From Candidatus Cloacimonadota bacterium (GTDB lineage: Bacteria; Muiribacteriota; UBA6191; JACPRK01), in the NCBI GenBank assembly GCA_021772705.1, contig JAJFLN010000112.1:1-43193 (forward strand): a stretch of 43,193 nucleotides of DNA, written 5' to 3'. Below, piece by piece: positions 6,229 through 41,997 of this stretch. The position numbers and the translations under genes are program-made. The notes beneath the pieces are model-generated. The model did no database searches. It was not told where the DNA came from and saw only the letters and a list, made by a program, of their open reading frames with translations. Numbering within the stretch: position 1 is the stretch's first letter; each line of letters starts with the position of its first letter.

Positions 6229-6230
6229 CC

Positions 6231-6467
6231 TCAAATCACCCCGTAGGATCGCAGGCGCTCACAGAAGTCGCCCAGGTCGCGTTCAGCTTCCTCGGGTCCG
6301 ATGTCATAGGTCTCCACCAGGCCATTGATGATCTCAGCCGCCGGCACCTCAGCCGTGAGCCCCTTCAGAATGAACTGACCTGTCTCGTTGACAACGAAGC
6401 TGTCGCCGGTGGAGGGATCAAAGGCGAAACCCTCATCGTTCAGCGCCAGTGACGAAAGCTTGGACAT
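6231..6467 (-). CDS. PqqD-family small protein (peptide-chaperone / RRE-like fold)
   Basis: 78 aa. The pattern FVVNETGQFILKGL...AAEIINGLVETYDIGPEEAERDLGDFCERLRSYGVI matches the PqqD-family layout (LNxTGxxIWxxL ... DVxxFLxxLxxxGLI). Strong SD GGAGAGGAG upstream. Confidence 0.7.
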   Translation of the reverse strand: MSKLSSLALNDEGFAFDPSTGDSFVVNETGQFILKGLTAEVPAAEIINGLVETYDIGPEEAERDLGDFCERLRSYGVI

Positions 6468-14844: not shown

Positions 14845-14859
14845 AGGAGCGGCACGTTC

Positions 14860-15501: not shown

Positions 15502-15607
15502 TTAAGAATGGTGAAACGGGTTACTGTCCTCCCTCGGTCTCGATGTGGCATGATGCCGACGGGACCTGGATAGAGGCGACGCCGCCCAGAAGAATCACGG
15601 AAAGGCC

Positions 15608-16510: not shown

Positions 16511-16539
16511 TGTGGTGGTTATAACGCTTCTTTCCTTAT

Positions 16540-16780
16540 CCGTTCGTGCCGAGCTTGTCGAGGCACAGAGCGCCGTTTCGCGGACCGCCCCCTCTCCTGA
16601 GCTTGCCGAAGGGTCAGACGATATGGCCACCCGCCCCGTCCATCCCCTTCGGCGTGGCTCAGGACATGCTTCGACAGGCTCAGGACGAACGGATCGGGAA
16701 AACTCGGCCATTCAGTCGTCCTGGATGCGGGCATCCATAGTAGGACGAACGGAACTGGAAAACTCGGCCATTCAGTCGTC
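16540..16780. repeat. REP/MITE-like nested palindromic element plus 39-nt direct repeat
   Basis: Outer inverted repeat 16540-16565 (ccgttcgtgccgagcttgtcgaggca) with 16667-16692. Inner inverted repeat 16595-16613 (tcctgagcttgccgaaggg) with 16645-16664. Direct repeats 16682-16720 and 16742-16780 are 37/39 identical. Pseudo-translation gives the FVLSLSKH / LRQAQERG-type strings typical of this repeat class. Confidence 0.8.
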
Positions 16781-16801
16781 TGTAAAGGAAACAGCGGCCC
16801 C

Positions 16802-19543: not shown

Positions 19544-19558
19544 CGTGAAACCATGAGC

Positions 19559-20689: not shown

Positions 20690-20735
20690 CAGGAAGACTC
20701 TTTAATCCATCGAGGCTTTCAGGGCCAGGGGTTTG

Positions 20736-23368: not shown

Positions 23369-23391
23369 AACGATGTTCCTCCTTCTTCCGC

Positions 23392-23889
23392 CTAGCAGAT
23401 TCCCGCCGGCATAGCTCCTTTGAGAACTTCCGGTACTCCCAGAGCCCTGAGGCTGGTCGAACGGGCCCGGGCGAACTCGGGGGTGTCGAAGACGGCACCC
23501 TCCGCCTGAGCCAGGTCGAGAGCCGTGAAGAGCCCGGTCATGCGGCCGACCTCCTCATCGCCGACGAGGGCATGTGTCTCCATCCGGCAATGACCCTCCA
23601 TACGCTCCAGGAAGCGGGCACACAGCTCCACCCGATCCCCGGGACGGATCAGTCCGGGGAAGACAGCTTCCTCGATCTTGGCGAAGACGGTCTTTCGCTG
23701 GAAGTCGAACGTCGCGGCGATGAGCATTCCGGCTGTCTGGGCCAGGGACTCCATCAGGAGCGCGCTCGAATAAACGGTCTCGAGACTCGATGCGGGATAG
23801 TAGTCGAGTCCGAGGGGTACATTCTTGTACGCCACGGCGGTCTCGCCCTTGATGAGCTCCGCATATCTGTCGACCAGGACGTACTTCAT
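23392..23889 (-). CDS. Hotdog-fold FabA/FabZ-like protein lacking the canonical catalytic His motif
   Basis: LLMESLAQTAGML aligns to the FabZ central helix. The preceding segment reads DYYPASSLETVYSS where FabZ has HFxxxPVMPG. ATG 23889 with GAGG 8 nt upstream (the ORF track extends to 23928). Confidence 0.65.
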   Translation of the reverse strand: MKYVLVDRYAELIKGETAVAYKNVPLGLDYYPASSLETVYSSALLMESLAQTAGMLIAATFDFQRKTVFAKIEEAVFPGLIRPGDRVELCARFLERMEGHCRMETHALVGDEEVGRMTGLFTALDLAQAEGAVFDTPEFARARSTSLRALGVPEVLKGAMPAGIC

Positions 23890-23899
23890 GATTGATGCC

Positions 23900-24655
23900 T
23901 CAAATGTTCGGGGCCAGCCCGAGCCCACCGTCCACCACGAAGATCTGCCCCGTGATGTAGGCCGCCTGTTCGGAGGCCAGGAAAGCCACCATACCTGCCA
24001 CGTCTTCGGGTTGACCGAACCGCTTCAGGGGAATCTTGTCGAGGTATTTGTCTCCGTGACGCTTACGTAGATCCTCGGTCAGCTCTGTCACGATCATCCC
24101 GGGAGCCACGGCGTTGACCGTGATACCTTTGGACGCGAACTCCAGTGAGATGGCTCGGGTGAACCCGTTGATGGCGGCCTTGGAGGCCACGTAGTTCGCT
24201 TTGCCCTTGCCGCCCCTCTCGCCCACGATGGAGCTGAGGTTGATGATCCTGCCCTTGCGAGCCAGCATCATCCCCCGGGCGGCGGCCCGGGTGCAGTTGT
24301 AGGTGCCGCCCACGTTCACGTTCATGACCCGATCCAGGGAGCCCCGGTCCAGGGAGAGCATGAGGCCGTCCTCATGAATGCCGGCGTTGTTCACCAGGAG
24401 CTGGACGTCCCCCAGCTTAGCGGCGATCTCCTCCATCATGTCCTGGACTTGCTGCTCCACAGCCACGTCGCCCCGGACTGCCATGCCCTTGCCCCCACGG
24501 GAGCGAATGATCTCCAGGACCTCCTCGGCGGCCAAGGCGGAGTGGTTGTAATTGATGGCAACAGCGGCGCCCCGGGAAGCAAGCTCCAGGGCGATGGCCC
24601 TGCCGATTCCCCTGGAGCCACCCGTTACGAGGGCCACGTCTCCGGCGAGCTTCAT
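23900..24655 (-). CDS. fabG: 3-oxoacyl-ACP reductase (SDR family)
   Basis: TGGSRGIGRAIA, NNAG, catalytic YVASKAA. 4-nt overlap with the upstream gene. Confidence 0.85.
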   Translation of the reverse strand: MKLAGDVALVTGGSRGIGRAIALELASRGAAVAINYNHSALAAEEVLEIIRSRGGKGMAVRGDVAVEQQVQDMMEEIAAKLGDVQLLVNNAGIHEDGLMLSLDRGSLDRVMNVNVGGTYNCTRAAARGMMLARKGRIINLSSIVGERGGKGKANYVASKAAINGFTRAISLEFASKGITVNAVAPGMIVTELTEDLRKRHGDKYLDKIPLKRFGQPEDVAGMVAFLASEQAAYITGQIFVVDGGLGLAPNI

Positions 24656-25140
24656 GCCCGGGTCTCCTGCTCGGAGGCGGTCAACAACTCCGGCCCTCCC
24701 AGGATGGCGAAGGTCTCATCGAGCTGGTCCAGACCGCGCTTGATGCGGGGGATGCCGCAGTCGAGAGGCCGATGACCGAGCTCGAAGCGGGCCGAGCCGA
24801 CCTTCTTGCCTTCGATGTGAAGAGTCCCCTTGTAGCGCGAATCGTTCAGCTTTTCGACGGTGATTTCCAGGACGCTTCCAGGCCGGACGTAGTCCGAGAA
24901 GACGGCTCTCTCCAGTCTGGCCAGAGGAAAGTCAGCCACCGGGAATCCTTCCTCTGCTCGCTTCAGCCACTGAGCGCTCTGCACCATCGATTCCACCATC
25001 AAGGCTCCCGGCATCAAGGGAAAGCCGGCGAAGTGATCCTCGAAGTGAGGCTCGCCGTAGCTCGGTGCCTTGATGGCCCGGACCCGGTCCGGTGGAGACA
25101 GCTCGATGAGTCTGTCGATCGAATGGAGTGGAAGTGCCAT
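24652..25140 (-). CDS. 3-hydroxyacyl-ACP dehydratase, FabZ-like
   Basis: Canonical PHFEDHFAGFPLMPGALMVESMVQ motif. I prefer ATG 25140 (MALPLHSIDR) over the extended ORF start at 25206. Confidence 0.75.
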   Translation of the reverse strand: MALPLHSIDRLIELSPPDRVRAIKAPSYGEPHFEDHFAGFPLMPGALMVESMVQSAQWLKRAEEGFPVADFPLARLERAVFSDYVRPGSVLEITVEKLNDSRYKGTLHIEGKKVGSARFELGHRPLDCGIPRIKRGLDQLDETFAILGGPELLTASEQETRA

Positions 25141-25221
25141 GACTCGGAAGGAAAACAGAGTAAAGGAAAGACGTCCGGAGGAGCGCCGGGAGCGGAATTC
25201 TATCAAGAGAGAGCCGTCTGC

Positions 25222-29100: not shown

Positions 29101-31488
29101 TTACTTGATCTCGCCCATCACCAGCCCGGCCTCGAAGTACTTCTTCTTTGCCAGGTAGTGATTGACCAGTTCCGTTAACTGATAGACCGTGGTGTCACGC
29201 ACGCTCATCCAGATTGCGTAGGTGCTGCCCGGAGTGGACGAGGTGGAGTAGCCCTTGTTCATCCGCTGCAGGTACCAGTGCCACCTGAGCTCCAGATCCT
29301 TCAGGTCAGAATCGAGATTGTCCCGTGCCTTGCTGTTGAGCCTGTCGTCCAGCAGGGTCCGGTCGGCGCGAAGGCTCTGAGAACTCCAGAGGTCATCGAT
29401 GTTACGCAGGACGCGGGTGCTGTCGGTGTTGACGCTCTCCCGGAACTGCTCCAGAGTGATCTCGGGAGGATTCTTCCCCCGGTCAATGTAGAGAGCCTTG
29501 GTGGCTGCAAAGATGGAGGTGCCCTCGACCTGCTTCAGATGCCCGTTGTAACCCTTGAGCTTCCGGGTGATCAGCATGGTGCCCAGGACACTTCTACGAG
29601 CCTTTTCGACCAGCTCGGCCAGACTCGGCTCGTTGTCCAGGTCGATGCCGCGCTCCCGGGCCTGCGCGTAAGTCTTCTCCAGGATGTCGGGCCAGGCCAG
29701 GAAGGTGTTCATGGCGCTCTGGGAGGAGGTCCAGGAGAAGGTCACCTTGCTCAGGTCCCGCAGCGCGGCCTGGCGAGCGTTGTCCGAGAACCAGCCGGCG
29801 TAAAATGACTCGTCCGTCGTCCAGGCCGTGACCATCTTGTGGTCGACTTCCTTGAGCTTCGTGTCGAATACGCGCTCCAGGCTCTCGAGCTTCTCCTTCA
29901 GCTTGGCCATTGCCTCGGGCTGGGCCTTCTCGGCTTCTGTGGGTTCCGGCTCCTCCTGGGGAGTGGGGGGCTCTTCCTCAGACACGGTGGTGGGAGATAC
30001 GCTGGTGGGCGCATCGGGGACGACCAGCTCACTTTCGGGCCTGTTCGTCTCCAGAACCGGTGCTTCAACGGGAGACTCGGCGGGGGCGTTCTTGGCGTAA
30101 ATGGCATCCCGGTCGCCGCCGGCGCGGGAGATGACGTCATCGACGAGCTTGAAGAACTCCTTCAGGGACGCCAGGTGCTTCTGGAAGGCCCGCTCCGCCA
30201 TTTCGCTCTTCTGGGCGCTGCCCTGGTCGGCCAGGAAGCCCCGCTCAGCTGTCAGGTAGGCGGCGTAATCGGCGGTGGAGCTGGTGAGGGCCGAGGAGAG
30301 GGAGGAGATGAGCGCCTTGTCGCCCGTGTTCTCCTCCGCGAGCCTCTTCACTTCGTCCACGAGGCGAGTGTAGGCCTCGCCGGAGATCTTGTCCGTACCG
30401 GCGTTGCCCAAGTAGAGCTCCACGAGCTGTCCGCTGTCCAGGTTGCGGCGCTTTGCTTCGGCTTCGACCTTCTCCAGAGCGCTGGCGATGTCCTCCTCAT
30501 CCAGGGAGGCGTCGTCGCCGGCCTTCTCGATGGCTGCCAGCAGTTCCTGGAAAGCGTCCTTCATCGACGGGTCGAGCCGCGTGGCCTGGTAGAGGCTGTT
30601 CACCTTCTCCTTCAGTGCCGGGTCCTTGATGCGCTCGATGAACTTCTGGACCTCGTTGTCCTCCGTGACCCGCTGGGCCGTGAAGACGTCCTCCACTGCC
30701 TGGCCAATCCAGCTCTCAGGCGACAGGGGATTGACGCCATCCTCGGGCTTCAGCCGTCGTCCCTGGGCGCGTTCGAATACCCGGCTGGTGAAGTCCGGAT
30801 CCAGCTCATCGTCTCGATCGCTGCCGGCCCGGGTCTTCTCACGGATTCCCCTGAGCTGACTTCGCTGCTCGATCAGAGCCCGCCTCTGGGCATCGTAGGC
30901 GAAGATGGTGCGCTTCAGGCTCTCTGCCTCGGAGGCATCCTTCGCTGTCTCCAGGAGGCCCCGGTAGGTGCGAATGTCTGCTTCGAGTTCACGAAGCTCC
31001 AGGTCGATCCGGATCAACTCGTCATCCATCAACTCCGTCTCGCCGGAGTTCGACGTCGCTGCCCGGGGACCGAACTCGTCGTCCCGATCATCAGGGTCAT
31101 TGTTTCTCGGCTCGTCCCTGTCGATCTGGAGGTCCTCCAGGCCGTCGAAGTCAGGCATGCCATCGTTCAGGAGATCCGTCGTGTCAGCGGCGCGAGGCCC
31201 GTCGGTGGGACTCCCCACATCCTCGTTATCATCCTGGAATCGGCGAGTATTCTCGCTGATGAACTTCTCCCACTTGTCCCGCTTGTCCGGGTCCAGGTTG
31301 GGTGGGTTGTCCATGGCTCCATCCCGGGAGCGATGGCACTCCATGCAGTTCGTGGTTCCGACCTGCTGGGCAATTGGCTGGGTAGCGAAAACGGGGCTAG
31401 TGAGGGCAAATGAAGCCAGCAGGACGGCAAGGGTGAGGAACATGAACCGGTGCACGGGAGTTCTCCTCTCGGTTCTTGGGGGTGTCAT
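29101..31488 (-). CDS. Secreted acidic, coiled-coil-rich protein with a single N-terminal CxxCH motif
   Basis: Signal peptide FMFLTLAVLLASFALTSPVFA followed by TNCMECHRS. I saw no other Cys in the protein. GTG 31455 (GAGGAG 7 nt upstream) is a likely alternative start to ATG 31488, which has no SD. Confidence 0.7.
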   Translation of the reverse strand: MTPPRTERRTPVHRFMFLTLAVLLASFALTSPVFATQPIAQQVGTTNCMECHRSRDGAMDNPPNLDPDKRDKWEKFISENTRRFQDDNEDVGSPTDGPRAADTTDLLNDGMPDFDGLEDLQIDRDEPRNNDPDDRDDEFGPRAATSNSGETELMDDELIRIDLELRELEADIRTYRGLLETAKDASEAESLKRTIFAYDAQRRALIEQRSQLRGIREKTRAGSDRDDELDPDFTSRVFERAQGRRLKPEDGVNPLSPESWIGQAVEDVFTAQRVTEDNEVQKFIERIKDPALKEKVNSLYQATRLDPSMKDAFQELLAAIEKAGDDASLDEEDIASALEKVEAEAKRRNLDSGQLVELYLGNAGTDKISGEAYTRLVDEVKRLAEENTGDKALISSLSSALTSSTADYAAYLTAERGFLADQGSAQKSEMAERAFQKHLASLKEFFKLVDDVISRAGGDRDAIYAKNAPAESPVEAPVLETNRPESELVVPDAPTSVSPTTVSEEEPPTPQEEPEPTEAEKAQPEAMAKLKEKLESLERVFDTKLKEVDHKMVTAWTTDESFYAGWFSDNARQAALRDLSKVTFSWTSSQSAMNTFLAWPDILEKTYAQARERGIDLDNEPSLAELVEKARRSVLGTMLITRKLKGYNGHLKQVEGTSIFAATKALYIDRGKNPPEITLEQFRESVNTDSTRVLRNIDDLWSSQSLRADRTLLDDRLNSKARDNLDSDLKDLELRWHWYLQRMNKGYSTSSTPGSTYAIWMSVRDTTVYQLTELVNHYLAKKKYFEAGLVMGEIK

Positions 31489-33752: not shown

Positions 33753-35153
33753 TCAGTCCTCGAGCTTCTGGACCGTGCCCTGACCCTCGCGGCGATTGGT
33801 CAACTCGTCAGAGAACTCGTCGAAGGGATCGTCGTAGTCCAGAGAGGTGCGGGTCTCGCCCGTGAGGGGGTCGTAGATCTTCTTTCCGCCCTTGGGGACT
33901 CGCTCCTGATCCTTGTCGTTGGACTGCCAGTACTGCTGCAGGTTCCACTCTTGAAGGGCTCGGAGATACCAGTCGGGAACGTACTCGACGGAGCCATCGG
34001 TGTCTTCGAAGTACTCGCTCTCGGTGTCGATTCCACCTGAACCGGCCAGCCGGTCATCGGACTCCGTCTCCGTCGCGTCATCCTGGTTCTCACGGACGGG
34101 AGGTTTGCCGCCATCCTGATCAGCTCGGGGCTTGTCGCCCTTGCCGGTGTCCCCTGCTTCGGGGTTGTTCTTCTCGCCCTTCAGCTTGTCCCTCCGGGAC
34201 AGCTCGGCCTTGATGCGGGCTGCTGCTGACCGAGCCTTGTCGCGAAGCGGGTTGTTGGGATCGTTGGCCTGTCGCTCCAACAGGGGCAGGACAGCCCGAA
34301 GGCCCATCTCTCGCTCGCCCTCGAGTTGTGCGGCCGTCATGGTGTAGAAGCTGCGATCCGAGTCCTGCTGGCTCTCTTCTTCATCGCTTCGCGAATCGTC
34401 GCTGCCATCGCCCTTACCGTCGCCGTCCTCACCGTCCGGTGCGTCGTCGTCATCTTCCTGGGGGATCGGCTTGCCGTCCTCGTCCAGGAGGGTCTCGTCG
34501 GCTCCGGGAGGCTCGTCCTCCAGATCCTGTCCCTGTTGCAGACCCTCGAGAATTTCGTCACCGACGCCGTTCAGGTTGGCGTCGCTGGCGGTCTCGAGCT
34601 GACGGACGGCCTCGGCGTCCCGCAGAACCTCATCGGAGAGGTTGTCGCCGGTCTTGGACTGCTTGATCACGTCCTGGTTCTCGGCGACGTCGGAGAGCAC
34701 GACGTGCATCAGCTGATCTCGCTTGGCTGCTGAGACCGGCTCTCCCGGCGATGCGGGCATGAGTTCGAGGATTCGATCGATGACCGCCTTCGGGGGCATG
34801 TAGATCTTCTCCCCCGGGTAGATCAGATCCTCGTTCTCGATGACCCGGCCGTCATGCTTATGGCCGGCGAGAGCGTTGTGATAGACCTGAACCGCCAGAG
34901 CGTTGCGCCACATCTGATGCTGCTCGTTCCGGGACAGGTCGCTGATGCCCTTCGACTGCGTGTCGGGAGGCATGTAGCGGATCGACAACCCGGACAGGGT
35001 TCCGTCCCGCAGGCTCTGGGTGGCGTCGCCCACCGTGACCGCCTCGGGTCCGGGCTCGCCGGACGCCGTACCTGCGACTGCTGTTCCCGTCGCCAGAATG
35101 AGGCAGATCGCTGCCAGCACCAGTCCTGTCTTTGCCAAGTTAATCGCTCTCAT
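33753..35153 (-). CDS. Secreted, highly acidic low-complexity protein
   Basis: ATG 35153 with AGGTGG 8 nt upstream (the track starts at GTG 35165). Signal peptide LVLAAICLILATGTAVAGTASG. D/E-rich central region (QEDDDDAPDGEDGDGKGDGSDDSRSDEEE). Confidence 0.65.
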   Translation of the reverse strand: MRAINLAKTGLVLAAICLILATGTAVAGTASGEPGPEAVTVGDATQSLRDGTLSGLSIRYMPPDTQSKGISDLSRNEQHQMWRNALAVQVYHNALAGHKHDGRVIENEDLIYPGEKIYMPPKAVIDRILELMPASPGEPVSAAKRDQLMHVVLSDVAENQDVIKQSKTGDNLSDEVLRDAEAVRQLETASDANLNGVGDEILEGLQQGQDLEDEPPGADETLLDEDGKPIPQEDDDDAPDGEDGDGKGDGSDDSRSDEEESQQDSDRSFYTMTAAQLEGEREMGLRAVLPLLERQANDPNNPLRDKARSAAARIKAELSRRDKLKGEKNNPEAGDTGKGDKPRADQDGGKPPVRENQDDATETESDDRLAGSGGIDTESEYFEDTDGSVEYVPDWYLRALQEWNLQQYWQSNDKDQERVPKGGKKIYDPLTGETRTSLDYDDPFDEFSDELTNRREGQGTVQKLED

Positions 35154-35217
35154 CAGGTTCACCACCTGTTTCCCATGATCTTTCTGGACGTAGACCTGAT
35201 CCTCTACATCCTCTACC

Positions 35218-35244: not shown

Positions 35245-35338
35245 AGAGGTCCATCCAAGTCTAGAAGTACCTCAGGTGGCCGTCAACTAGACATGACGAC
35301 GGCGCTGGCCCGAAGGGTAGATTTCCCGAAGACTGAAT

Positions 35339-35965
35339 CTACTTCGGGTTCGGTTTCCAGAGGTCATCCCGCACCTCCGGAGCCCGCTTGCTCACCAGGG
35401 TCCTGAAGGTGTGGATCGACTTGCCTGGTTTACCTTCCGCCATGGCCTTCGCCTGTTCCTGATTGGCAAACTCCAGGCGGATCTCATAGAAACCCAGGAC
35501 GTCAATCTCCCGGGTGAAGTTGCCGGTGGTGACCGAGATCCGGGGATTCCGGGCGAAGACCTGGAAGGAGGTGATGAAACCGACGCTCCTGCCCGAGAGG
35601 CCGAAGCTCTGCTCCCGATCCTCGTCGCCTCCCTTGGCAGTTCGTTTCACGTAACGCTCGGTCTCGAAGAACTCGTAGGTCACGGTCTCGGTGGAAGGGG
35701 GGGCGTCGGCGTCCTTCGAGTTGGCCTCCCGGGTGATGGTGACAGTGGAGCCGAGCTGGATTGAATCGCCCCGGCCGGCGCTTCGGATGTCGCGGCGCAC
35801 GTTGTCCAGGAGCAGCGTCGCCTGGCGAAGGAAGTCGAGGGTCGCCTCGGCTCGGCCCACGTTTCTCTGAACCCCGGTGAACATCTGGAGAAGGATCAGG
35901 ATGATGATCGAGGCCACGGCCATGACGAACATGGTCTCGATGAGGGTGAAGGCCCGTCGGCTCAT
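35339..35965 (-). CDS. Prepilin-type N-terminal motif protein (minor pseudopilin-like)
   Basis: MSRRA|FTLIETMFVMAVASIIILILL has Phe+1/Glu+5 and Ala at -1. ATGA overlap with the upstream gene and GGAGG SD. The track ORF extends to 36070. Confidence 0.7.
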   Translation of the reverse strand: MSRRAFTLIETMFVMAVASIIILILLQMFTGVQRNVGRAEATLDFLRQATLLLDNVRRDIRSAGRGDSIQLGSTVTITREANSKDADAPPSTETVTYEFFETERYVKRTAKGGDEDREQSFGLSGRSVGFITSFQVFARNPRISVTTGNFTREIDVLGFYEIRLEFANQEQAKAMAEGKPGKSIHTFRTLVSKRAPEVRDDLWKPNPK

Positions 35966-36573
35966 CCTCCACCTCCCAGGGACCGGTAGGGATCTCCCAG
36001 GACGGTTCGAAGCTCCACATGCTGTTTCTTCTGAACCTCGCCGGCGTTGCTGGATCGCCTGACGGTCCATTCGACTCGGATGATGACGGTCAGGGTCTTC
36101 TCCCGCCGCACGCTGCCCGTGGGGGCGCTGGGATCCGCCGGGGCCCCACCGCCAGAGTCTCGGATGGCGAAGTAGCGAATGTAGTAGTCCTCCATCGGCG
36201 GCACGATGGGGTCGTCGCTGGCAAAGAAGGCCTTCTCGAAGGAATCCCAGGCCTTGAGCTGATCATTGGTGGGGGCGTCCGAGGAAATGGGCGCGAAGAG
36301 AACCTCGTCCAGGGACTGAGGGACGCCCCACTTGCCCTTTCCCAGCTGCTGCATGATGGGTGGAAACTGGCTGACGGCGTCGAATCCGACTGCCCGGATC
36401 GCCTCGATCAGGTTGGAGGCATGGTTGGTGGCCTGAACCTGGCTGACGGTCAACCGCGCCGTCTGGGTGCTGCCGGACATGACCCAGAATATGGGAATGA
36501 TCCCTGCGAAGAGGATGATGATCCCGATGAAGAGCTCCAGGAAGCTGAAGCCTTGATTTCGGCGCTGCTGCAT
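35962..36573 (-). CDS. Prepilin-type N-terminal motif protein (minor pseudopilin-like)
   Basis: MQQRRNQG|FSFLELFIGIIILFAGIIPIF has Gly-1, Phe+1 and Glu+5. TGATG overlap with the upstream 1106-aa gene. Confidence 0.7.
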   Translation of the reverse strand: MQQRRNQGFSFLELFIGIIILFAGIIPIFWVMSGSTQTARLTVSQVQATNHASNLIEAIRAVGFDAVSQFPPIMQQLGKGKWGVPQSLDEVLFAPISSDAPTNDQLKAWDSFEKAFFASDDPIVPPMEDYYIRYFAIRDSGGGAPADPSAPTGSVRREKTLTVIIRVEWTVRRSSNAGEVQKKQHVELRTVLGDPYRSLGGGG

Positions 36574-39500
36574 CAGATCTTGCCGGAGCTGTACTTCCGA
36601 ACCCGGGGTTCGATGTTGGTGATGAAGGAGTTTAGGTTCTTGAACGCCGGGTTGTAATCGATGACCCGCTTGCCAGAACGAGTGAAGCTCGACTTATCCC
36701 AGCCGCCAGCGACCACGCTGCCCTGGATGTACAGGGAGTCCGTGGGGGCGCCGGACAGGGAGATAGTCTTGTGGGCGATGAGGCCGGCCTGCACGATCTT
36801 TGCCTCCCCGCTGATGGTGATCTTGTCCGCCACGAGCCAGACCGTTCCCTTGGCCTTCAGGTCGTTGACGATGGAGATCTCTCCGGGAACGACAATTGCA
36901 CCGGACCCCTGGATGGTGATGGGACCCTCCGTGCCCAGCTCCACCTTGCTGCTGGCCACGCCCAAGATGGTGTTGAGGAACAGGAGGTTGTCTCCCGAAG
37001 GGTCCAGGACCAGGAACCGGCGGCTCGCTTCGTCCCAGGTCATCAGACCCTCGGCATCGCCGTCACCTCCGGTCCCGTCGGCCCAGAAGGAGCGGCCGCC
37101 GAAGGCCTCCTTCGTGTCGGGATCGCTGGGAGCCGAGACACCCTTGCCGTATTCATCCATGAAGAAATAGGCTTCCTCCAGGCGCTTCGTGCCCTTTCGT
37201 TTCTTGTAGATCTCCTTCAGGACGGCGTCGTTGAGCGGCATGTCGTTGTTCTCGCCATACTTCTCCGGATCCAGATAGTCATTCTCCCCTTTCTCGATGT
37301 AGCCGATGCCGTCGGTGATCTCGGCGGGGAACTCGTTCATCAGGAGTTCCTTCCGCTCCTTCACGTCCTTGGAGAAGATCTCCCGCAGATCAGTGCACAT
37401 GAACCGCAGGGAGTAGTTGTAAGGCAGGACCCGGGCTGGGTTGGTCATCAAGGGGGTGAAGTAGAGCTTGAAGAAGTCTTCCTTCGTGTTGGCGTTCTTC
37501 ACGGGCCAGTTGGTGACCCACTGCTTCTCGAAGTAGTCTCTGAAGTTCTCCTTCGCCGATCCGGGCCGGTTGTCCCAGGGGTCGGGCAGAGAGAAGGGGA
37601 AGAACTTCGGAGCGTTGGCTCCCTTGGCCTCCCAGAACTTGCGCTTCTTCTCGTCCTTGATCTGAGAGGGCTGGATCTCCTTCACCTCCACCCGGCTTCG
37701 GATGTCGTTCTCATCGTCCACCAGAGCCTTCCACCGGGTCTTGGCGCCCAGCAGGGCCGCCTTCATGGCCTCCTCCGACTGGCCCGTGGGACCTGACTGA
37801 CCCTCGGCCTGGGCTGCATCCCGGACCTTCTGAATCGCCTCGTCCACGGGACCGAGACCGGAGACGCTGTAGCTGAAGCAACGAAGCAGCTCTTCGAAAT
37901 AGGGCGTGACGCCCTTGTAGAGATAGCCGTCACCGGCCTCGTACTTACCAGAGCCCCAGAAATTCTTCTTGCCCAGGAGTTGAAAGAGAGGGCTCATTCC
38001 GACAGCGAACTGAGGGGCGCCGTCGTTCTGGTCCGTCTTGGTCGCGTTCTCCGTCTCCGGAGGAGGGGCCACGCTCTTCAGGAAGAGCCGCTTGGCGTAC
38101 TGGACCCGGCTCTTCTCCCAGAGCTTGGCAAGACCGGGCATGAGCCGGCCGAAGAGGGCCGCGCCTGAGAGAGGCAGATAGGTTCCATTGGCGGACTTGT
38201 TCGCCACGTTGGGGTCCATGTTCCACCGGACCCGGGCATCCCAGACCCAGATAGGCCGTTTCTCCTTGTCCTCCGTCGGGTCCTGGCTCCGGTCCATCAG
38301 GTCCTTGTATCCCTCGAAGAACTCCACTGGCCCGGCTTGGACCTCGAACTTGCGATCCGTGCTCGGTTCCTCCTGACCCTTCGGGTCCGACTTGCGCCGC
38401 TGCTTGTATCCTGACAGAGACAGGCAGCGCCGGTAGACATTGCCGAGGACCACCGTGGGGCTGGCGAAGTTGCCCTGCAGATACTGGCCCGGTTGCTGGG
38501 GGTTCCGGATACCCAGGCTGGGTCCGTTTCCGTTGGAACCGAAGAGGTGAAGGCTGGAGCTGACGATGGTTTGGGTCCCCCCTTCGCCATCGCCGCGAGC
38601 GAAACCGAATCGCTGGTAGGATTTGGTTCCCCACTCCGTAGCGTAACCGTAGTCCTTCCTGACGACGTAGTAGAGCGGCAATGCGTTGGAGTCCGCCAGG
38701 TTCTTGCTGCCTTGCTCGATGTTGTCCAGCTCCAGAGCACGCCTGAGGGCTCCCTTGAGCCATTCCCGGACGTCCTTCACCATCTTGCCGAAGAAGTTGA
38801 CACTCCGCTGGAACCAGCCCTTCTCGCCGGGCCCTTCCGGCGCGTCCTTGCCCGGTGTCTGGACTTCCGACTTCTCGATGAAGTTGGAGAACTCCGTGGA
38901 CCAGACCTTGTAGAAGTCCGTCGTTGCGCCCCGATAGAGGTGGAACGTCTCCGAGTAGGGCGCCTGGTCCGAGATGTCCCCGGCCATCAAGTTCAGGTGG
39001 GCCTTCTCCTCGCCCCCCAGGTAGATGTAGCCGATCTTGTTCTCGAACTGGCCCTTCAAGGTGGCTCCCTGAAAGTCAGCCTGGGGGCCGAAGAAGAAGC
39101 CATCGCCGCTCTTGACGAACAGGACGCCGCCGGTGGCGCTTTTGCCGGTCAAGGGGTTCTGGGCCCAGTTGAAGTTGCCCCGGTTCTGGAAGCTCTCTGG
39201 TTCCTCCTTCTGGGTGATGGCCTTCTTCACATAGAGGGAGAAGTGGCGGAAGTAGGGTGGAATCGTCCGGGCTCGTTTGAATTCGTATTCCATGGAGATG
39301 CTGCGAGCGGGAATCCTGAAGGTGTCGACCTTGCGGTACTGACCGGTGGTGGAATCCTCCCGCAGACCTTGCTGGAGTACGATGTTGTCCTTCAGCTTGA
39401 GCAGGATCTCCACCCGTCCGTGGACCTCGGGAGAGCCCACCTTCTGTAGGGCCGTGGGCAGGGTGGCGCTTCCCTCGTCGGCGGGACGGATGGTGTTGAA

Positions 39501-39893
39501 GCCGGCCATCTTCTTCAGACCCTTCAATCGGGCCGTGACCTCCAGGCTGTCGAGGAAGCTGTCGGCCATGGTGTTGGGGCTGCCATCGGCGCCGGCTTCG
39601 CCCAGGATGCCGGAGGAGGACAACTCCCCCTTCACGTCTCCCGTGATGTCGACCCACTCTCCGGGATCTTCGTCCAGGAGGGCCGTGAGGGTCGATTCCC
39701 GCTGAACCACGGCTCTGGAGATGACGTCGAGGCCGTCGAAGATGGCCAGCACCTTCTCGTTGTAATAGGTGTGGTGAAGCATCCTGGACGTGGACTGGCT
39801 GATCCAGTTGTAGGTGATCACCACGATACCAAGAACGACCATGACGACGATCGCCATGAGCGTGACGGAACCGGGACGAGAGCGCTTGAGCAT
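36573..39893 (-). CDS. Large (1106 aa) membrane-anchored protein with GspK/PilX-like N-terminus
   Basis: The N-terminus MLKRSRPGSVTLMAIVVMVVLGIVVITY resembles GspK/PilX-type anchors (no Glu+5). The body is unassigned. The C-terminus has beta-helix-like repeats (ITIQGSGAIVVPGEISIV, KITISGEAKIVQAGLIAHKTISLSG). Confidence 0.6.
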   Translation of the reverse strand: MLKRSRPGSVTLMAIVVMVVLGIVVITYNWISQSTSRMLHHTYYNEKVLAIFDGLDVISRAVVQRESTLTALLDEDPGEWVDITGDVKGELSSSGILGEAGADGSPNTMADSFLDSLEVTARLKGLKKMAGFNTIRPADEGSATLPTALQKVGSPEVHGRVEILLKLKDNIVLQQGLREDSTTGQYRKVDTFRIPARSISMEYEFKRARTIPPYFRHFSLYVKKAITQKEEPESFQNRGNFNWAQNPLTGKSATGGVLFVKSGDGFFFGPQADFQGATLKGQFENKIGYIYLGGEEKAHLNLMAGDISDQAPYSETFHLYRGATTDFYKVWSTEFSNFIEKSEVQTPGKDAPEGPGEKGWFQRSVNFFGKMVKDVREWLKGALRRALELDNIEQGSKNLADSNALPLYYVVRKDYGYATEWGTKSYQRFGFARGDGEGGTQTIVSSSLHLFGSNGNGPSLGIRNPQQPGQYLQGNFASPTVVLGNVYRRCLSLSGYKQRRKSDPKGQEEPSTDRKFEVQAGPVEFFEGYKDLMDRSQDPTEDKEKRPIWVWDARVRWNMDPNVANKSANGTYLPLSGAALFGRLMPGLAKLWEKSRVQYAKRLFLKSVAPPPETENATKTDQNDGAPQFAVGMSPLFQLLGKKNFWGSGKYEAGDGYLYKGVTPYFEELLRCFSYSVSGLGPVDEAIQKVRDAAQAEGQSGPTGQSEEAMKAALLGAKTRWKALVDDENDIRSRVEVKEIQPSQIKDEKKRKFWEAKGANAPKFFPFSLPDPWDNRPGSAKENFRDYFEKQWVTNWPVKNANTKEDFFKLYFTPLMTNPARVLPYNYSLRFMCTDLREIFSKDVKERKELLMNEFPAEITDGIGYIEKGENDYLDPEKYGENNDMPLNDAVLKEIYKKRKGTKRLEEAYFFMDEYGKGVSAPSDPDTKEAFGGRSFWADGTGGDGDAEGLMTWDEASRRFLVLDPSGDNLLFLNTILGVASSKVELGTEGPITIQGSGAIVVPGEISIVNDLKAKGTVWLVADKITISGEAKIVQAGLIAHKTISLSGAPTDSLYIQGSVVAGGWDKSSFTRSGKRVIDYNPAFKNLNSFITNIEPRVRKYSSGKI

Positions 39894-39924: not shown

Positions 39925-39953
39925 AGCGTAACGGATGGATACCTGGCGGTCAA
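39925..39953 (-). promoter_or_regulatory. Weak sigma70-like promoter candidate for the pseudopilin operon
   Basis: Minus strand reads TTGACC-N17-TACGCT, between the terminator hairpin and ATG 39893. Confidence 0.25.
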
Positions 39954-39969: not shown

Positions 39970-40007
39970 TCCCCAAAGCAGAAACGACGGCCCGAAGGCC
40001 GCCGTTT
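39970..40007 (-). terminator. Rho-independent terminator/attenuator after the anti-sigma gene
   Basis: Minus strand reads AAACGGCGGCC-TTCG-GGCCGTCGTTT: 11-bp stem with one G-U pair, a UUCG loop, then TCTGCTTTGG. It starts about 20 nt after stop 40028. Confidence 0.6.
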
Positions 40008-40027: not shown

Positions 40028-41395
40028 CTACCTGTGTTCCACGCCGTTGTAATCCGGGTCGGTCCGGTCGATGCCGGCATCAATGACGGGGCCGTCGTCG
40101 ACTGGCTGAGAAGTGCGGCCAGCGCCGAAGGTCGTCGTCGGAGCGTCGGAGAGAGGGGCGGGGACGATTGCGGAGCGAGCGGCCTCTTCCTGGACCCGCT
40201 GGAGCAGGGCCGAGTTGGTGGGGAGGCCCCACTTGAGGAAGTCGTTCTCCGTGATGGTCGCGAGACGGGCGAGCTGCATATGCTGGACGTCTGTCTGGTA
40301 GCCCTCCTTCACCAGGACCGTGGAGATTTCTCGCTTCGTGTCGGGGTCGATACTGGCGACCTCGACCTTGCTCTCGAAGACCTGGACCTTGGTCTTGACC
40401 GTCCGGGTCGCGTTGAGGGAGTCGAGGAGCATGTTGACCTGTACGGCGAGGCTGACGGGTGTGGCGTGCATCGGATAGGCCAGCATCGGCATCAGGCCGT
40501 TCATTCGGGAATCTGTCAGGTTTCGGGTGTACTCGTCGAGGAACTTATCGACGACCTTGCTCTCGGTCAGATCACCGTCATAGTAGGCGGCGATGCGCTC
40601 GGGGTAATGGACTTCGGCGGAGTATCGGGTTCCTCGGACGGAGGCCACTGCGTTGGGCGTCTCGGCCTGGAAGCGGCTGCCGATCTTGTCGACTCGAATC
40701 CAGGTGTCTCCGTGATAGACGCGGACCGCATTGGTCAGGATCTGGACGAGAGACCTGGGGCGAAGCTTCAAGGTGGTCTTGTCCTGGGTGTACTCGATCC
40801 GTGCCGTGGCGCCCGGGAGGGTACGAATCTTGTCGCCGTATCCAACCTCATCGGCATCGGAGATGTGAAGCCACTGTGAGGAGTTGACCCTCTGGACCTG
40901 GACATCACCGCTGGCGATACGGACGTGAATCCGCTGGCTCGTGCGCCGTTTGGCCAGGCTGGGCTCCACCAGAGGAGGAGTCTTGGCGATGGTGGTCAGG
41001 GCGCTGTCCTGCTGAGCGTGCATCTCGGGCATCGGCAGGGAGCCGGGTTGCCCCGCCTGGAAGATGAAGATCCCGGCGGTGATGACCACGACGGCGGCTG
41101 CGGAGGCTAGGCTCCAGAACCAAGCGCCAGTGGACTGAGGCTGCAGGTCCGGGATGAGCGGCATCGGCCGGACCGGGTGATTCACCTCGGTCATGACTTC
41201 GCTCGTGATTCGCCCAGGAGGGACGAGATCTTCGAGCTGCTCGAGCCCTTCGACTACCTTGTTGTACAACTTGAAATCCAATCTACACCTGGCGCAGACA
41301 TCGATGTGGTTCATCAGGACGGCGGTCTGACCGCTGTCCAGCGCCTTGTCCAGGTATAGCTGGAGCAAATCCTCGTAATTGTCACACGAAGACAT
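40028..41395 (-). CDS. Anti-sigma factor: zinc-binding (ZAS, zf-HC2) N-domain, TM segment, FecR-like periplasmic domain
   Basis: HIDVCARC fits HxxxCxxC. TM WFWSLASAAAVVVITAGIFIF. FecR-like GDVQVQRVNSSQW...GDKIRTLPGATARIEY...VRGTRYSAEV. ATG 41395 sits behind AGGTGA (the track uses GTG 41404, overlapping the sigma stop). Confidence 0.8.
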   Translation of the reverse strand: MSSCDNYEDLLQLYLDKALDSGQTAVLMNHIDVCARCRLDFKLYNKVVEGLEQLEDLVPPGRITSEVMTEVNHPVRPMPLIPDLQPQSTGAWFWSLASAAAVVVITAGIFIFQAGQPGSLPMPEMHAQQDSALTTIAKTPPLVEPSLAKRRTSQRIHVRIASGDVQVQRVNSSQWLHISDADEVGYGDKIRTLPGATARIEYTQDKTTLKLRPRSLVQILTNAVRVYHGDTWIRVDKIGSRFQAETPNAVASVRGTRYSAEVHYPERIAAYYDGDLTESKVVDKFLDEYTRNLTDSRMNGLMPMLAYPMHATPVSLAVQVNMLLDSLNATRTVKTKVQVFESKVEVASIDPDTKREISTVLVKEGYQTDVQHMQLARLATITENDFLKWGLPTNSALLQRVQEEAARSAIVPAPLSDAPTTTFGAGRTSQPVDDGPVIDAGIDRTDPDYNGVEHR

Positions 41396-41400
41396 CTGGA

Positions 41401-41997
41401 TCACCTCGTCTCGGACCCTTGCAAACGACCCTCTAGATAGCCTTTAAGAAGTTTCCGCGCTCTGTGAATCCTGGCTTTGATCGTCCCCATGGGGAGGTTC
41501 AACATCTGGGACATCTCTTTGTAGGAGAGGTTCTGGATGTGGCGCAGCACCACTACGGCACGGTAGTCGATGGGCAAGAGTTCGATACCTTCCCGGATGA
41601 CCGCCTGCAGCTCCGCTGCTTCTAGCCGGTCCTCCAGCTCCGTCTCGGTGTTGCGCTGAGACGTCGCGTGGGAGAGGATGGCACTCTCAGCGCCGCTGGA
41701 GAGGATGACTTCCAGTGAGGCTGTGTTCTGAGAGCGCGTCCGATGGTAATCGATACAGAGGTTACTGACTGTCTTGAGGAGCCAGTTGGAGAACTTGTAC
41801 TTCGGGTCATAGCGATCCAGAGACTTGTAGATCTTGATGAAGGCATCCTGAGCGATGTCCTTCGCCTTCTCTGGGTTGCTTGTTAGACGATATGCCATGT
41901 TGTAGACCCGACGGTTGTACTTGTCGACCAGCTGGGCAAAGACCTCTTTCTTGCCCTTCAGGCAAAGCTTGATCAGCTTGTAATCTTCGTTTTCCAC
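41401..41997 (-). CDS. ECF-type RNA polymerase sigma-70 family factor
   Basis: Region 2 DIAQDAFIKIYKSLDRYDPKYKFSNWLLKTVSNLCIDYHR. Region 4 LSYKEMSQMLNLPMGTIKARIHRARKLLK. GTG start at 41997. Confidence 0.85.
   Translation of the reverse strand: MENEDYKLIKLCLKGKKEVFAQLVDKYNRRVYNMAYRLTSNPEKAKDIAQDAFIKIYKSLDRYDPKYKFSNWLLKTVSNLCIDYHRTRSQNTASLEVILSSGAESAILSHATSQRNTETELEDRLEAAELQAVIREGIELLPIDYRAVVVLRHIQNLSYKEMSQMLNLPMGTIKARIHRARKLLKGYLEGRLQGSETR

What the first reader, a model, noticed from the sequence alone, without database searches (positions are those of the whole stretch)
35339..39893. Orphan pseudopilin-like operon: giant GspK/PilX-like protein plus two prepilin-motif proteins, with no pilus or T2SS machinery nearby
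Three translationally coupled genes (TGATG and ATGA overlaps) encode the following. The first is a 1106-aa protein with a GspK/PilX-like N-terminal anchor (GSVTLMAIVVMVVLGIVV, no Glu+5). The second is a 203-aa protein with G|FSFLE. The third is a 209-aa protein with A|FTLIE. This parallels the GspK/GspI/GspJ tip-complex logic of type II secretion and type IV pili. But the K-like protein is about three times the usual size and ends in beta-helix-like repeats. No major (pseudo)pilin, ATPase, platform, secretin or prepilin peptidase gene lies in the window. The operon sits between an ECF sigma/anti-sigma pair and a set of secreted proteins of unknown function. It may cap or nucleate a surface fibre, or deliver those neighbouring proteins.
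Basis: partly seen in the sequence, partly recalled or inferred. Interest (0 to 1): 0.7.

Follow-up and report, generated by a model that had tools for sequence, protein, structure and literature searches.

The report
Giant cap-pilin plus two minor pilins
Three overlapping genes encode a 1106-residue pilin-like protein of unknown fold and two ordinary prepilin-type proteins, a trio kept together in several uncultivated bacterial phyla that most likely forms the tip of a type IV pilus-like fibre whose assembly machinery is encoded elsewhere.

Summary
On the minus strand, A (36573-39893, 1106 aa), B (35962-36573, 203 aa) and C (35339-35965, 208 aa, not 209) overlap by TGATG and ATGA. B and C carry the only two prepilin motifs in the window. 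A has a basic leader, Gly-1 and no Glu+5.

A-B-C is kept together in every related locus with readable downstream sequence: 15 long-form loci and three cassettes with shorter (695, 716 and 783 aa) relatives of A, from Wallbacteria, Riflebacteria, Cloacimonadota and unnamed MAGs. No secretin, platform or prepilin peptidase was found in about 400 kb of flanks.

A confident AlphaFold2 model of A (pLDDT 86.9) shows a 57-residue N-terminal helix, a beta-sheet, conserved beta and helical domains, and a C-terminal beta-solenoid. It matches no solved structure (Foldseek E > 0.2) and no Pfam or NCBIfam family.

My reading: a free-standing tip or priming module of a type IV filament, capped by a giant modular PilX/GspK-class pilin. 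The closest analogues are Thermus ComZ, cyanobacterial beta-solenoid PilX/HpsA with HpsB-D, and GspK-I-J. It is not a detectable member of any of these families.

An ECF sigma/FecR-type anti-sigma pair precedes the trio only in the Wallbacteria/Riflebacteria clade. The downstream secreted proteins are not conserved across clades.

Verdict: a new variant of a known kind. Function is untested.

The parts
36573..39893 (-). Gene A. A 1106-aa modular pilin-like protein. Leader MLKRSRPG|S with no Glu+5. Helix 8-64, then a beta-sheet at 117-222. Conserved beta-rich regions at about 240-330 and 408-575. A helical region at 577-960 that falls largely within the stretch the short-form relatives do not match. 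A beta-solenoid at 961-1065 and a terminal strand at 1090-1103.
   Evidence: ORF. The in-frame GS motif is kept across loci with changed Ser codons TCC/AGC/TCT. AlphaFold2 gives pLDDT 86.9 and pTM 0.85. There are 17 close homologues and 308 profile hits. No Pfam, NCBIfam, PDB or Foldseek match.
35962..36573 (-). Gene B. A 203-aa prepilin-type protein (QG|FSFLE) of the PilV/GspI class, judged by its N-terminus. Its start overlaps the stop of A (TGATG).
   Evidence: The motif is present in 15 of 15 homologues, with invariant F+1, E+5, G and P in alpha1. All 15 hit TIGR02523 PilV and 10 hit XpsI, both below threshold. Pfam N_methyl is hit by 12 of 15 homologues but not by the window copy.
35339..35965 (-). 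Gene C. A 208-aa prepilin-type protein (RA|FTLIE). Its start overlaps the stop of B (ATGA), and a GGAGG ribosome-binding site lies upstream.
   Evidence: PF07963 scores 22.8 bits against a cut-off of 21.2. TIGR02532 scores 21.1 against 16.3. The motif is present in 15 of 15 homologues, with Gly or Ala at -1. N_methyl is hit by 14 of 15.
39925..39953 (-). Promoter-like element TTGACC-17 nt-TACGCT upstream of A.
   Evidence: The same element lies upstream of A in L001, L009, L010 and L011. It scores below the generic scanner's threshold. Whether it is functional, and which sigma factor would use it, is inferred only.
39975..40005 (-). Terminator-like hairpin (ACGGCGGCC-TTCG-GGCCGTCGT) followed by a T-rich tail, just after the anti-sigma stop codon.
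   Evidence: Read from the sequence. A similar hairpin lies upstream of A in L010. The scanner did not call it.
40028..41404 (-). Anti-sigma factor, with zf-HC2 and FecR domains.
   Evidence: Pfam. It is syntenic upstream of A in L003/L013, L007, L009, L011 and L012.
41401..41997 (-). ECF-type sigma factor.
   Evidence: Pfam Sigma70_r2 and r4_2. It is 93% identical to the copies in L009 and L011, and 68-70% identical to those in L007 and L003.
33753..35165 (-). Protein D. A 470-aa signal-peptide protein with an acidic tract and no known domain. It has its own promoter-like site, TTGACG-17-TAGACT, at 35286..35258. It is an accessory conserved only within one clade.
   Evidence: It is homologous to the D proteins of L001, L010 and L011 (BLAST) and of L007 and L012 (hhalign 96.7%). 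It is not related to the Cloacimonadota-type D.

Best explanation
A-B-C is a free-standing tip (priming) module of a type IV filament, more likely a type IV pilus than a type II secretion pseudopilus.

Proposed mechanism:
1. All three proteins insert into the inner membrane through their hydrophobic N-terminal helix.
2. A prepilin peptidase encoded elsewhere cuts them after Gly/Ala-1.
3. They associate through their alpha1 helices into a heterotrimer. B acts as the PilV/GspI-like subunit, C as the PilW/GspJ-like subunit, and A as the capping PilX/GspK-like subunit.
4. A lacks Glu5, as cap pilins do, because no subunit sits above it.
5. The trimer primes polymerisation of a major pilin by machinery encoded elsewhere and ends up at the distal tip.
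6. There the roughly 1000-residue ectodomain of A (conserved beta domains, a helical domain and a beta-solenoid) serves as plug and adhesin or ligand binder. This is the role PilY1 or the ComZ/PilX beta-solenoids play in other systems.

Shown: the gene structure, the signal motifs and their conservation, strict co-occurrence of the three genes, the domain layout of A, and the absence of machinery nearby.

Inferred: processing, trimer formation, tip location and ligand binding.
For: - Motifs and overlaps are confirmed.
- The trio is invariant in 15 long-form loci and 3 short-form cassettes. Each has exactly one protein without Glu5 followed by two with Glu5.
- Family-wide, the A leader has Gly (106) or Ala (14) at -1, and +5 is never acidic in 120 sequences.
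- The leader of A is translated. The Gly-Ser motif is kept while the Ser codon switches between TCC, AGC and TCT.
- All 15 B homologues hit the PilV N-terminal model and 10 hit XpsI.
- C passes N_methyl and TIGR02532.
- AlphaFold2 on A gives a 57-residue alpha1 helix, a 6-strand sheet and a C-terminal beta-solenoid at pLDDT 86.9.
- Strong hits to C (E < 1e-40) come only from the contigs that carry A; after that the scores drop to generic pilin N-termini.
- Precedents exist: modular tip pilins (PMC8179133), ComZ (PMC6561018), beta-solenoid PilX as a PilY1 substitute, HpsA with HpsB-D (bioRxiv 10.64898/2026.02.12.705559; PMC6495340), and minor-pilin clusters remote from the machine (PMC7541494).
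- Type IV pilus machinery is reported in Cloacimonadota. PilT-like ATPases lie 8 kb from A in L005. Extra pilin-like genes lie near the cassette in L007 and L011.
Against: - No Foldseek or sequence match links A, or the globular parts of B and C, to any solved pilin.
- The pilin fold of A rests on predicted secondary-structure order only.
- B and C were not modelled.
- No major pilin, GspH/FimU-like fourth minor pilin, peptidase, platform or secretin was seen in about 400 kb of flanks.
- Whether this genome has such machinery is unknown.
- Several paralogous cassettes can occur in one genome (L023).
- The recurrent ECF/FecR neighbours could point to a different, filament-independent envelope role.
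Confidence: 0.6

Rival explanations
1. The trio is the tip of a type II secretion-type pseudopilus. In this reading A-B-C are the GspK/I/J equivalents of a periplasmic piston that recruits and expels the signal-peptide proteins encoded just downstream. This follows the TcpB-TcpF and CofB-CofJ precedent, in which a tip minor pilin binds a secreted protein.
For: - The K-I-J-like trio lacks an H-like pilin.
- In most loci with downstream sequence the trio is followed by two to four signal-peptide proteins of unknown function.
- 10 of 15 B homologues hit the XpsI model.
- There are precedents for tip pilins that bind secreted partners (PMC6048534, PMC9565799, PMC10120004).
Against: - The downstream proteins are not conserved between clades, and the D position is differently occupied in L003 and L008.
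- D has its own promoter-like site.
- No GspD, GspE, GspF, GspL, GspM or GspC homologue lies near any cassette.
- A protein of about 120 kDa capping a short periplasmic pseudopilus has no precedent.
Confidence: 0.17
2. The trio is a filament-independent envelope complex. The pilin-like N-termini serve only as membrane anchors. A-B-C form a periplasmic or surface assembly that signals to, or is controlled by, the adjacent FecR-type anti-sigma/ECF sigma pair. It would be a family of envelope sensors or adhesins that has expanded by paralogy.
For: - Machinery is absent around more than 20 cassettes.
- The sigma/anti-sigma pair lies directly upstream in all 7 loci of the Wallbacteria/Riflebacteria long-form clade that have upstream sequence. 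In L014 only the sigma gene was detected.
- ECF and FecR genes also lie near the short-form cassettes.
- L023 holds two cassettes, one in an operon headed by sigma-FecR-FecR.
- The ectodomain of A matches no pilin.
Against: - Glu5 is strictly kept in B and C and strictly absent in A. That pattern is the signature of filament packing, not of simple anchoring.
- The Cloacimonadota-type clade keeps A-B-C without any sigma/anti-sigma pair.
- A-B-C has its own sigma-70-like promoter and is separated from the anti-sigma gene by a terminator-like hairpin.
Confidence: 0.15
3. The pilin resemblance is a chance or annotation artefact. A would be an ordinary signal-anchored secreted protein that merely lies next to two pseudopilin genes.
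For: - A hits no pilin model.
- Gene callers often start A homologues after the Gly-Ser motif.
Against: - The in-frame leader is kept with synonymous Ser codon switches.
- Leaders have Gly or Ala at -1 and no acidic residue at +5 in all 120 sequences examined.
- The long alpha1 helix followed by a sheet is predicted with high confidence.
- A is invariably linked to B and C by overlapping or closely spaced genes, across phyla.
Confidence: 0.04

Closest known systems
Beta-solenoid PilX-class cap pilins: Thermus thermophilus ComZ (with PilA2), and cyanobacterial PilX/HpsA with HpsB-D pseudopilins
   Same: - An N-terminal pilin module is joined to a bulky beta-solenoid in one polypeptide.
- It is co-encoded with small PilV/PilW-like pilins.
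- No PilY1 is present.
- The set is encoded away from the core machine.
- The expanded forms (HpsA) also carry extra domains of unknown function.
- hpsA-D depends on alternative sigma factors.
(PMC6561018; bioRxiv 10.64898/2026.02.12.705559; PMC6495340.)
   Different: - There is no detectable sequence or Foldseek similarity. A gave no NCBIfam hit at E <= 1. Ice-binding-type solenoids appear only at E 0.5-5.
- A has about 700 further residues: conserved beta domains and a helical region of about 380 residues.
- Those systems carry a fourth FimT-like pilin; here there are only three pilin-like proteins.
- Whether the solenoid is inserted into the pilin sheet, as in those proteins, could not be checked.
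- The hosts are Wallbacteria, Riflebacteria and Cloacimonadota.
GspK-GspI-GspJ tip complex of type II secretion
   Same: - One cap subunit without Glu5 plus two subunits with Glu5.
- The genes are translationally coupled.
- The leader of A (basic residues, then Gly, then a hydrophobic stretch) resembles E. coli GspK, MNNEQRG|VALLIVL.
- 10 of 15 B homologues hit XpsI (GspI) below threshold.
   Different: - A is 3.4 times the size of E. coli GspK (327 aa).
- A has no T2SSK Pfam hit, hhalign gives nothing and Foldseek gives nothing.
- The gene order is K-I-J rather than I-J-K.
- The trio is not inside a gsp operon, and no GspC-O homologue is nearby.
PilV-PilW-PilX plus PilY1 priming complex of type IVa pili (P. 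aeruginosa, M. xanthus)
   Same: - The set of minor pilins is encoded apart from the machine.
- Alternative sets can occur in one genome.
- A large protein of about 1000-1500 residues sits at the tip.
- The set has dedicated regulation.
(PMC7541494, PMC9109919.)
   Different: - Here the large protein is itself pilin-like rather than a separate beta-propeller protein.
- A has no PilY1/PilC domain.
- No FimU or PilE equivalents are present.
- The PilX_N model is not hit by the window protein. One of 10 relatives tested hits it at E 0.019.
Verru_Chthon cassette (NCBIfam TIGR02600/02598/02599/02596)
   Same: - From my own knowledge of the TIGRFAMs description: a multi-copy cassette with one very large protein and small proteins bearing prepilin-type N-termini, found in little-studied phyla and not linked to machinery.
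- The top NCBIfam hit of C is TIGR02599.
   Different: - The TIGR02599 hit covers only the 59 N-terminal residues and scores 28 bits against a cut-off of 256.5.
- A does not hit TIGR02600.
- That cassette has three small proteins; this one has two.
Modular type IV pilins (S. sanguinis PilB/PilC, CofB, TcpB)
   Same: The concept is the same: a pilin module carries a grafted functional module that is displayed at the tip (PMC8179133).
   Different: - Those pilins keep Glu5 and sit in pilus operons.
- Their extra modules are known folds (vWA, lectin, beta-sandwich).
- The most extreme multi-domain case singled out in that survey was 860 residues. A has 1106, and its modules have no recognisable fold.

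Membership tests
Type IV pilin-like proteins (class III signal peptide; Pfam PF07963 N_methyl, NCBIfam TIGR02532) | A short basic leader ending in Gly (rarely Ala) at -1, followed by about 20 hydrophobic residues. | tested here: met
   B and C show it in 15 of 15 homologues each. Among A relatives, 106 have Gly and 14 have Ala out of 120, with a mean of 2.6 basic residues in positions -8 to -1.
Type IV pilin-like proteins (class III signal peptide; Pfam PF07963 N_methyl, NCBIfam TIGR02532) | Glu at +5 of the mature protein. | tested here: met
   Met for B and C, where it is invariant. Not met for A: none of 120 relatives has an acidic residue at +5. This is the known exception for the GspK/PilX class.
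Type IV pilin-like proteins (class III signal peptide; Pfam PF07963 N_methyl, NCBIfam TIGR02532) | A match to the curated HMM above its cut-off. | tested here: inconclusive
   C passes: PF07963 22.8 against 21.2, and TIGR02532 21.1 against 16.3. The window's B has no Pfam hit, while 12 of 15 B homologues hit at E <= 0.1. A has no hit.
Type IV pilin-like proteins (class III signal peptide; Pfam PF07963 N_methyl, NCBIfam TIGR02532) | The pilin fold: a long alpha1 helix packed on an antiparallel beta-sheet. | tested here: inconclusive
   The AlphaFold2 model of A has helix 8-64 followed by strands 117-222 at pLDDT 84-97, but Foldseek finds no pilin.
Type IV pilin-like proteins (class III signal peptide; Pfam PF07963 N_methyl, NCBIfam TIGR02532) | Cleavage and N-methylation by a prepilin peptidase, and incorporation into a filament. 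| not testable with these tools
   This needs the whole genome and experiments.
GspK (type II secretion minor pseudopilin K) | Sequence or profile match to the GspK family. | tested here: not met
   No Pfam or NCBIfam hit at E <= 1. hhalign of alignment A1 against E. coli GspK gives probability 0.5%.
GspK (type II secretion minor pseudopilin K) | The GspK structure: a pilin fold with an inserted alpha-domain, as in the solved GspK-GspI-GspJ complex. | tested here: not met
   Foldseek against the PDB found no match with E < 0.25, using the model with pLDDT 86.9.
GspK (type II secretion minor pseudopilin K) | Encoded within a gsp operon next to gspI and gspJ and the machinery genes. | tested here: not met
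   No GspC-O homologues occur in the window or in about 400 kb of related loci.
PilX (Pfam PF14341 PilX_N) | A match to the PilX N-terminal model. | tested here: not met
   The window's A has no hit at E <= 1. One of 10 short-form relatives hits at E 0.019, 15.4 bits against a cut-off of 25.5. UniRef labels relative P0039 as PilX N-terminal domain-containing.
Beta-solenoid PilX/ComZ/HpsA class | A pilin N-terminal module plus a bulky beta-solenoid in one chain, co-encoded with PilV/PilW-like pilins. | tested here: met
   AlphaFold2 shows a solenoid at 961-1065. B and C are adjacent in every locus examined.
Beta-solenoid PilX/ComZ/HpsA class | Homology to ComZ or HpsA, by sequence or by structure. 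| tested here: not met
   PDB profile searches and Foldseek give no ComZ hit. A has no NCBIfam hit at E <= 1.
Beta-solenoid PilX/ComZ/HpsA class | The solenoid is inserted between the penultimate and the last strand of the pilin sheet. | not testable with these tools
   The model coordinates cannot be inspected. Only the order of secondary-structure elements is available. A long terminal strand at 1090-1103 follows the solenoid.
PilY1/PilC tip adhesin | A C-terminal beta-propeller domain (the PilC/PilY1 domain, IPR008707). | tested here: not met
   No Pfam hit. The secondary-structure pattern of the model shows no propeller.
Verru_Chthon cassette (TIGR02600 A, TIGR02599 C) | Full-length matches to the cassette models. 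| tested here: not met
   A has no hit. C scores 28.1 bits on residues 5-63 only, against a cut-off of 256.5. Ten short-form relatives of A have no hit.

The most novel reading that the evidence does not exclude
A-B-C defines a previously undescribed class of type IV filament tip. Its cap pilin is a roughly 120-kDa protein built from folds with no solved relative. In the Wallbacteria/Riflebacteria clade it is functionally coupled to a dedicated ECF sigma/FecR-type anti-sigma pair. The tip complex, or its periplasmic pool, would then be the input of a surface- or ligand-sensing circuit. Paralogous cassettes would give one machine several alternative sensing or adhesive tips.
Probability: 0.15. 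Interest if true: 0.75.

Novelty: new variant of a known kind. Interest (0 to 1): 0.55.

Why it matters
- It would extend the emerging idea that PilX-class cap pilins can replace PilY1 by carrying their own bulky tip domain. That idea currently rests on Thermus and cyanobacteria. This case would add three uncultivated phyla and a much larger, structurally unassigned ectodomain.
- The family has about 300 representative sequences at 50% identity and carries no annotation.
- Its confident AlphaFold2 model has no solved structural neighbour, so it is a source of new folds that are probably displayed on the cell surface.
- The recurrent ECF/FecR neighbours give a testable link between a pilus tip and extracytoplasmic signalling.

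Tried and rejected
- Pfam and NCBIfam on A gave nothing.
- PDB profile searches with A1, A2, A3 and A5 gave only weak pilin N-terminal helices or noise.
- hhalign of A1, A2 and A3 against E. coli GspK, GspI and GspJ gave nothing for GspK and only the N-terminal helix for GspI and GspJ.
- Foldseek with a first model of moderate quality (pLDDT 67.7) and a second, confident model (pLDDT 86.9) gave no match with E < 0.2 against the PDB or BFVD. Only generic beta-solenoids appeared (left-handed beta-helix enzymes, ice-binding proteins, bactofilin, hemolysin A).
- A 144-sequence alignment was too large for the structure job, so it was cut to 94 sequences.
- I looked for a shared ECF-type promoter upstream of the sigma gene and of A. 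Only a sigma-70-like TTGACC-17-TACGCT element was conserved in the closest relatives, and a TCCGTTACGC 10-mer was shared with L003. The sigma factor that uses it could not be assigned.
- I tested whether downstream proteins D to G form families that co-occur with A. This holds only within clades.
- Literature searches for Wallbacteria with pili and for the Verru_Chthon cassette found nothing useful.
- I considered PilY1, TadG-like and phage tail-fibre readings. I rejected the PilY1 and phage tail-fibre readings for lack of any domain or fold match; TadG was not specifically searched.


Full report
**1. Observation**

The three minus-strand ORFs are as described. A is 36573..39893 (1106 aa) and B is 35962..36573 (203 aa). 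The junctions read ATCTGATGCAG and GGAGGATGAGCC. So the TGATG and ATGA overlaps are real, and a GGAGG ribosome-binding site precedes C.

B begins MQQRRNQG|FSFLE. C begins MSRRA|FTLIE. A begins MLKRSRPG|SVTLMAIVVMVVLGIVV.

A six-frame regular-expression scan of the whole 43-kb window finds only two prepilin-type motifs. They are exactly the N-termini of B and C, so this is not a chance pattern.

Pfam scans of 31 ORFs covering the window found no pilus or type II secretion machinery. tblastn with E. coli K-12 GspC-O and a PilT-like ATPase also found none.

Upstream lie an ECF sigma (41401-41997) and a zf-HC2/FecR anti-sigma (40028-41404). Downstream lie four signal-peptide proteins:
- D, 470 aa.
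- E, 360 aa.
- F, which carries M23 and TPR domains.
- G, 795 aa.

D, E and G have no Pfam hit.

**2.

- C passes N_methyl (22.8 bits against a cut-off of 21.2) and TIGR02532.
- The window's B gives no Pfam hit. Its best hit is a sub-threshold match to the PilV N-terminal model.
- A hits nothing.

At family level the picture is clear:
- 12 of 15 B homologues hit N_methyl.
- 14 of 15 C homologues hit N_methyl. The exception is a truncated gene call.
- All 15 B homologues hit the PilV model, and 10 hit XpsI (GspI). These hits are below threshold and cover about 55 N-terminal residues.
- C's hits are spread over ComGE, PpdB, ComGF, Verru_Chthon C, and single hits to HpsC and GspJ.

**3. Conservation**

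A has only 17 close relatives among 5.8 billion clustered proteins. The named ones come from Candidatus Wallbacteria.

Fetching contexts and scanning GTDB species genomes gave loci from Wallbacteria, Riflebacteria, Cloacimonadota and unnamed MAGs. These reach down to 24-27% identity with A.

In all 15 long-form loci with readable downstream sequence, A is followed at once by one B-like gene and one C-like gene. B-like genes read [KR]G|F[ST]xxE and C-like genes read [GA]|[FVM]TxxE. No other Glu5-type prepilin ORF lies in the cassette.

Strong hits to the C profile come only from contigs that carry A. After them the scores fall to generic pilin N-termini.

**4. The leader of A is translated**

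Gene callers often start A homologues at a Met after the motif. However, the in-frame upstream sequence keeps basic residues followed by Gly-Ser. The Ser codon switches between TCC, AGC and TCT across loci. That is conservation at the protein level.

**5. A wider family**

A profile search of 1.84 billion representative proteins found 308 hits at E <= 0.001. About 29 of them (E <= 1e-30) are long-form proteins or fragments of them. Most of the remaining listed hits are proteins of about 650-900 aa that match the profile in two to four stretches. The commonest stretches are profile positions 1-300, about 410-470 and about 880-1050. They are therefore short forms that lack the long-form-specific middle region.

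The named examples are again from Wallbacteria and Riflebacteria. One is labelled by UniRef as PilX N-terminal domain-containing.

Of 144 family members, 120 show a recognisable N-terminal leader motif. Position -1 is Gly in 106 and Ala in 14. Position +5 is never acidic.

Two short forms were looked up, and both are followed by two prepilin-motif genes. L023 holds two convergent cassettes.

**6. Structure of A**

With the 17-sequence alignment, AlphaFold2 gave pLDDT 67.7. With a 94-sequence alignment that included short forms, it gave pLDDT 86.9 and pTM 0.85.

The order of elements is:
- A helix at 8-64 (57 residues, the length of a pilin alpha1).
- Short helices, then six strands at 117-222.
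- Beta-rich conserved regions at about 240-330 and 408-575. These hold the most conserved motifs, including GYIYLGG...LNL, YYVVRKDYGY, VYRRCLSLSGYKQRR and WVWDARV.
- A disordered loop at 333-372.
- A helical region at 577-960.
- A regular beta-solenoid at 961-1065.
- A long terminal strand at 1090-1103.

Foldseek found no match better than E 0.25 in the PDB or BFVD. The weak hits are generic solenoids. Profile searches of PDB sequences also found nothing.

The pilin-like N-terminal module is therefore supported by motif and by secondary-structure order. It is not supported by any fold match. The rest of the protein has no recognisable relative.

**7. Context**

No GspD, GspF or GspO homologue occurs in about 400 kb of fetched flanks. 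The only ATPases of the family are two PilT-like genes about 8 kb from A in L005. Extra pilin-like genes lie beside ruvX in L007 and L011. Cloacimonadota genomes are reported to encode type IV pilus machinery.

The sigma gene was found upstream of A in all seven long-form loci of the Wallbacteria/Riflebacteria clade where it could be checked. In six of them the anti-sigma gene was detected too. In L014 only the sigma gene was found, about 4 kb upstream of A. The sigma factor is 93% identical to the copies in L009 and L011, where A is only about 60% identical. ECF and FecR genes also lie near the short-form cassettes.

The Cloacimonadota-type clade has no such pair. There a class I aminoacyl-tRNA synthetase gene lies upstream on the opposite strand.

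Between the anti-sigma gene and A lie a terminator-like hairpin and a promoter-like TTGACC-17-TACGCT element. The element is also kept in L001, L009, L010 and L011. A similar element precedes D. A-B-C therefore looks like its own transcription unit. Which sigma factor drives it remains open.

Downstream secreted proteins recur in position but not in sequence. The Wallbacteria-type D is homologous to the D of L007 and L012 (hhalign 96.7%). It is not related to the D-E-F-G set conserved in the Cloacimonadota-type loci.

**8. Interpretation**

The invariant set of one Glu5-less cap-type pilin plus two Glu5 pilins is the signature of the tip core of type IV filaments. Known examples are GspK-I-J and PilX-W-V.

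The large size of A and its terminal beta-solenoid fit the modular-pilin concept (PMC8179133). They fit most closely the beta-solenoid PilX class:
- Thermus ComZ (PMC6561018).
- Cyanobacterial PilX, including the expanded HpsA, which is encoded together with the pseudopilins HpsB-D. The solenoid in this class is proposed to replace PilY1 as the tip plug (bioRxiv 10.64898/2026.02.12.705559; PMC6495340).

Minor-pilin sets encoded away from the machine, and present in several copies, are normal in M. xanthus (PMC7541494).

I therefore read A-B-C as a free-standing tip or priming module whose machinery lies elsewhere (confidence about 0.6). The rivals are a type II secretion-like pseudopilus tip serving the neighbouring secreted proteins (0.17), a filament-independent envelope complex tied to the ECF/FecR pair (0.15), and an artefact (0.04).

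**9. Membership and novelty**

B and C are members of the type IV pilin-like superfamily. A works like a GspK/PilX-class cap pilin but fails every membership test I could run for GspK, PilX, ComZ/HpsA, PilY1 and Verru_Chthon protein A.

It is best called a new variant of a known kind. The family is unannotated and consists of giant cap pilins with structurally unassigned ectodomains, always paired with two dedicated minor pilins, in uncultivated phyla. Function is untested.

Noticed in passing
window 29101-31488 (-): The 795-aa secreted protein G has a CxxCH motif near its N-terminus (NCMECH). The motif is kept in the L001 homologue (SCLECH). It recalls the non-canonical cytochrome c TfcP encoded in a M. 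xanthus minor-pilin/PilY1 cluster (PMC8833165).
   Followed up: no
window 41401-41997 (-), compared with L009 and L011: The ECF sigma factor is 93% identical between loci in which A, B, C and the anti-sigma factor are only about 53-65% identical. The cytoplasmic regulator is much more constrained than its extracytoplasmic neighbours.
   Followed up: partly
window 35258-35286 (-) and 39925-39953 (-): Only three matches to TTGAC-N16-18-TAnnnT occur in the whole window on both strands. Two of them lie just upstream of A and of D. Equivalent sites precede A and D in related loci.
   Followed up: partly
window 1688-3874 (-): A 728-aa ORF joins a urea-transporter domain (PF03253) to a Peptidase_M23 domain. 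This is an unusual fusion.
   Followed up: no
window 9371-12082 (+) and 16802-25206 (-): A lipid or polyene-like biosynthesis cluster. It has two ketoacyl synthases, two FabA-like dehydratases, an SDR reductase and an alpha/beta hydrolase, together with two MMPL/RND-type transporters.
   Followed up: no
window 12838-16510 (+): A Ser/Thr signalling trio: a VWA-FHA protein, a double-zinc-ribbon-FHA protein and a PP2C phosphatase.
   Followed up: no
L023 8216-18035: A Riflebacteria locus holds two convergent short-form cassettes. One is preceded by two OmpA-domain proteins. The other lies in an operon headed by sigma-FecR-FecR and has an extra 122-aa gene between A' and B'.
   Followed up: partly
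L015, L017, L019 and L020, about 14400-20700: In the Cloacimonadota-type loci, A-B-C is followed by a conserved set of four signal-peptide proteins of about 610, 700-750, 420 and 140 aa. In L015, the locus scanned, none has a Pfam hit. They may be clade-specific partners of the cassette.
   Followed up: partly
L007 4146-6079; L011 about 5530-6300: Additional small pilin-like genes lie next to ruvX, a few kb upstream of the sigma/anti-sigma/A-B-C block. One has a Glu5-less leader (RRG|TSLVG) and one is of the Glu5 type.
   Followed up: no
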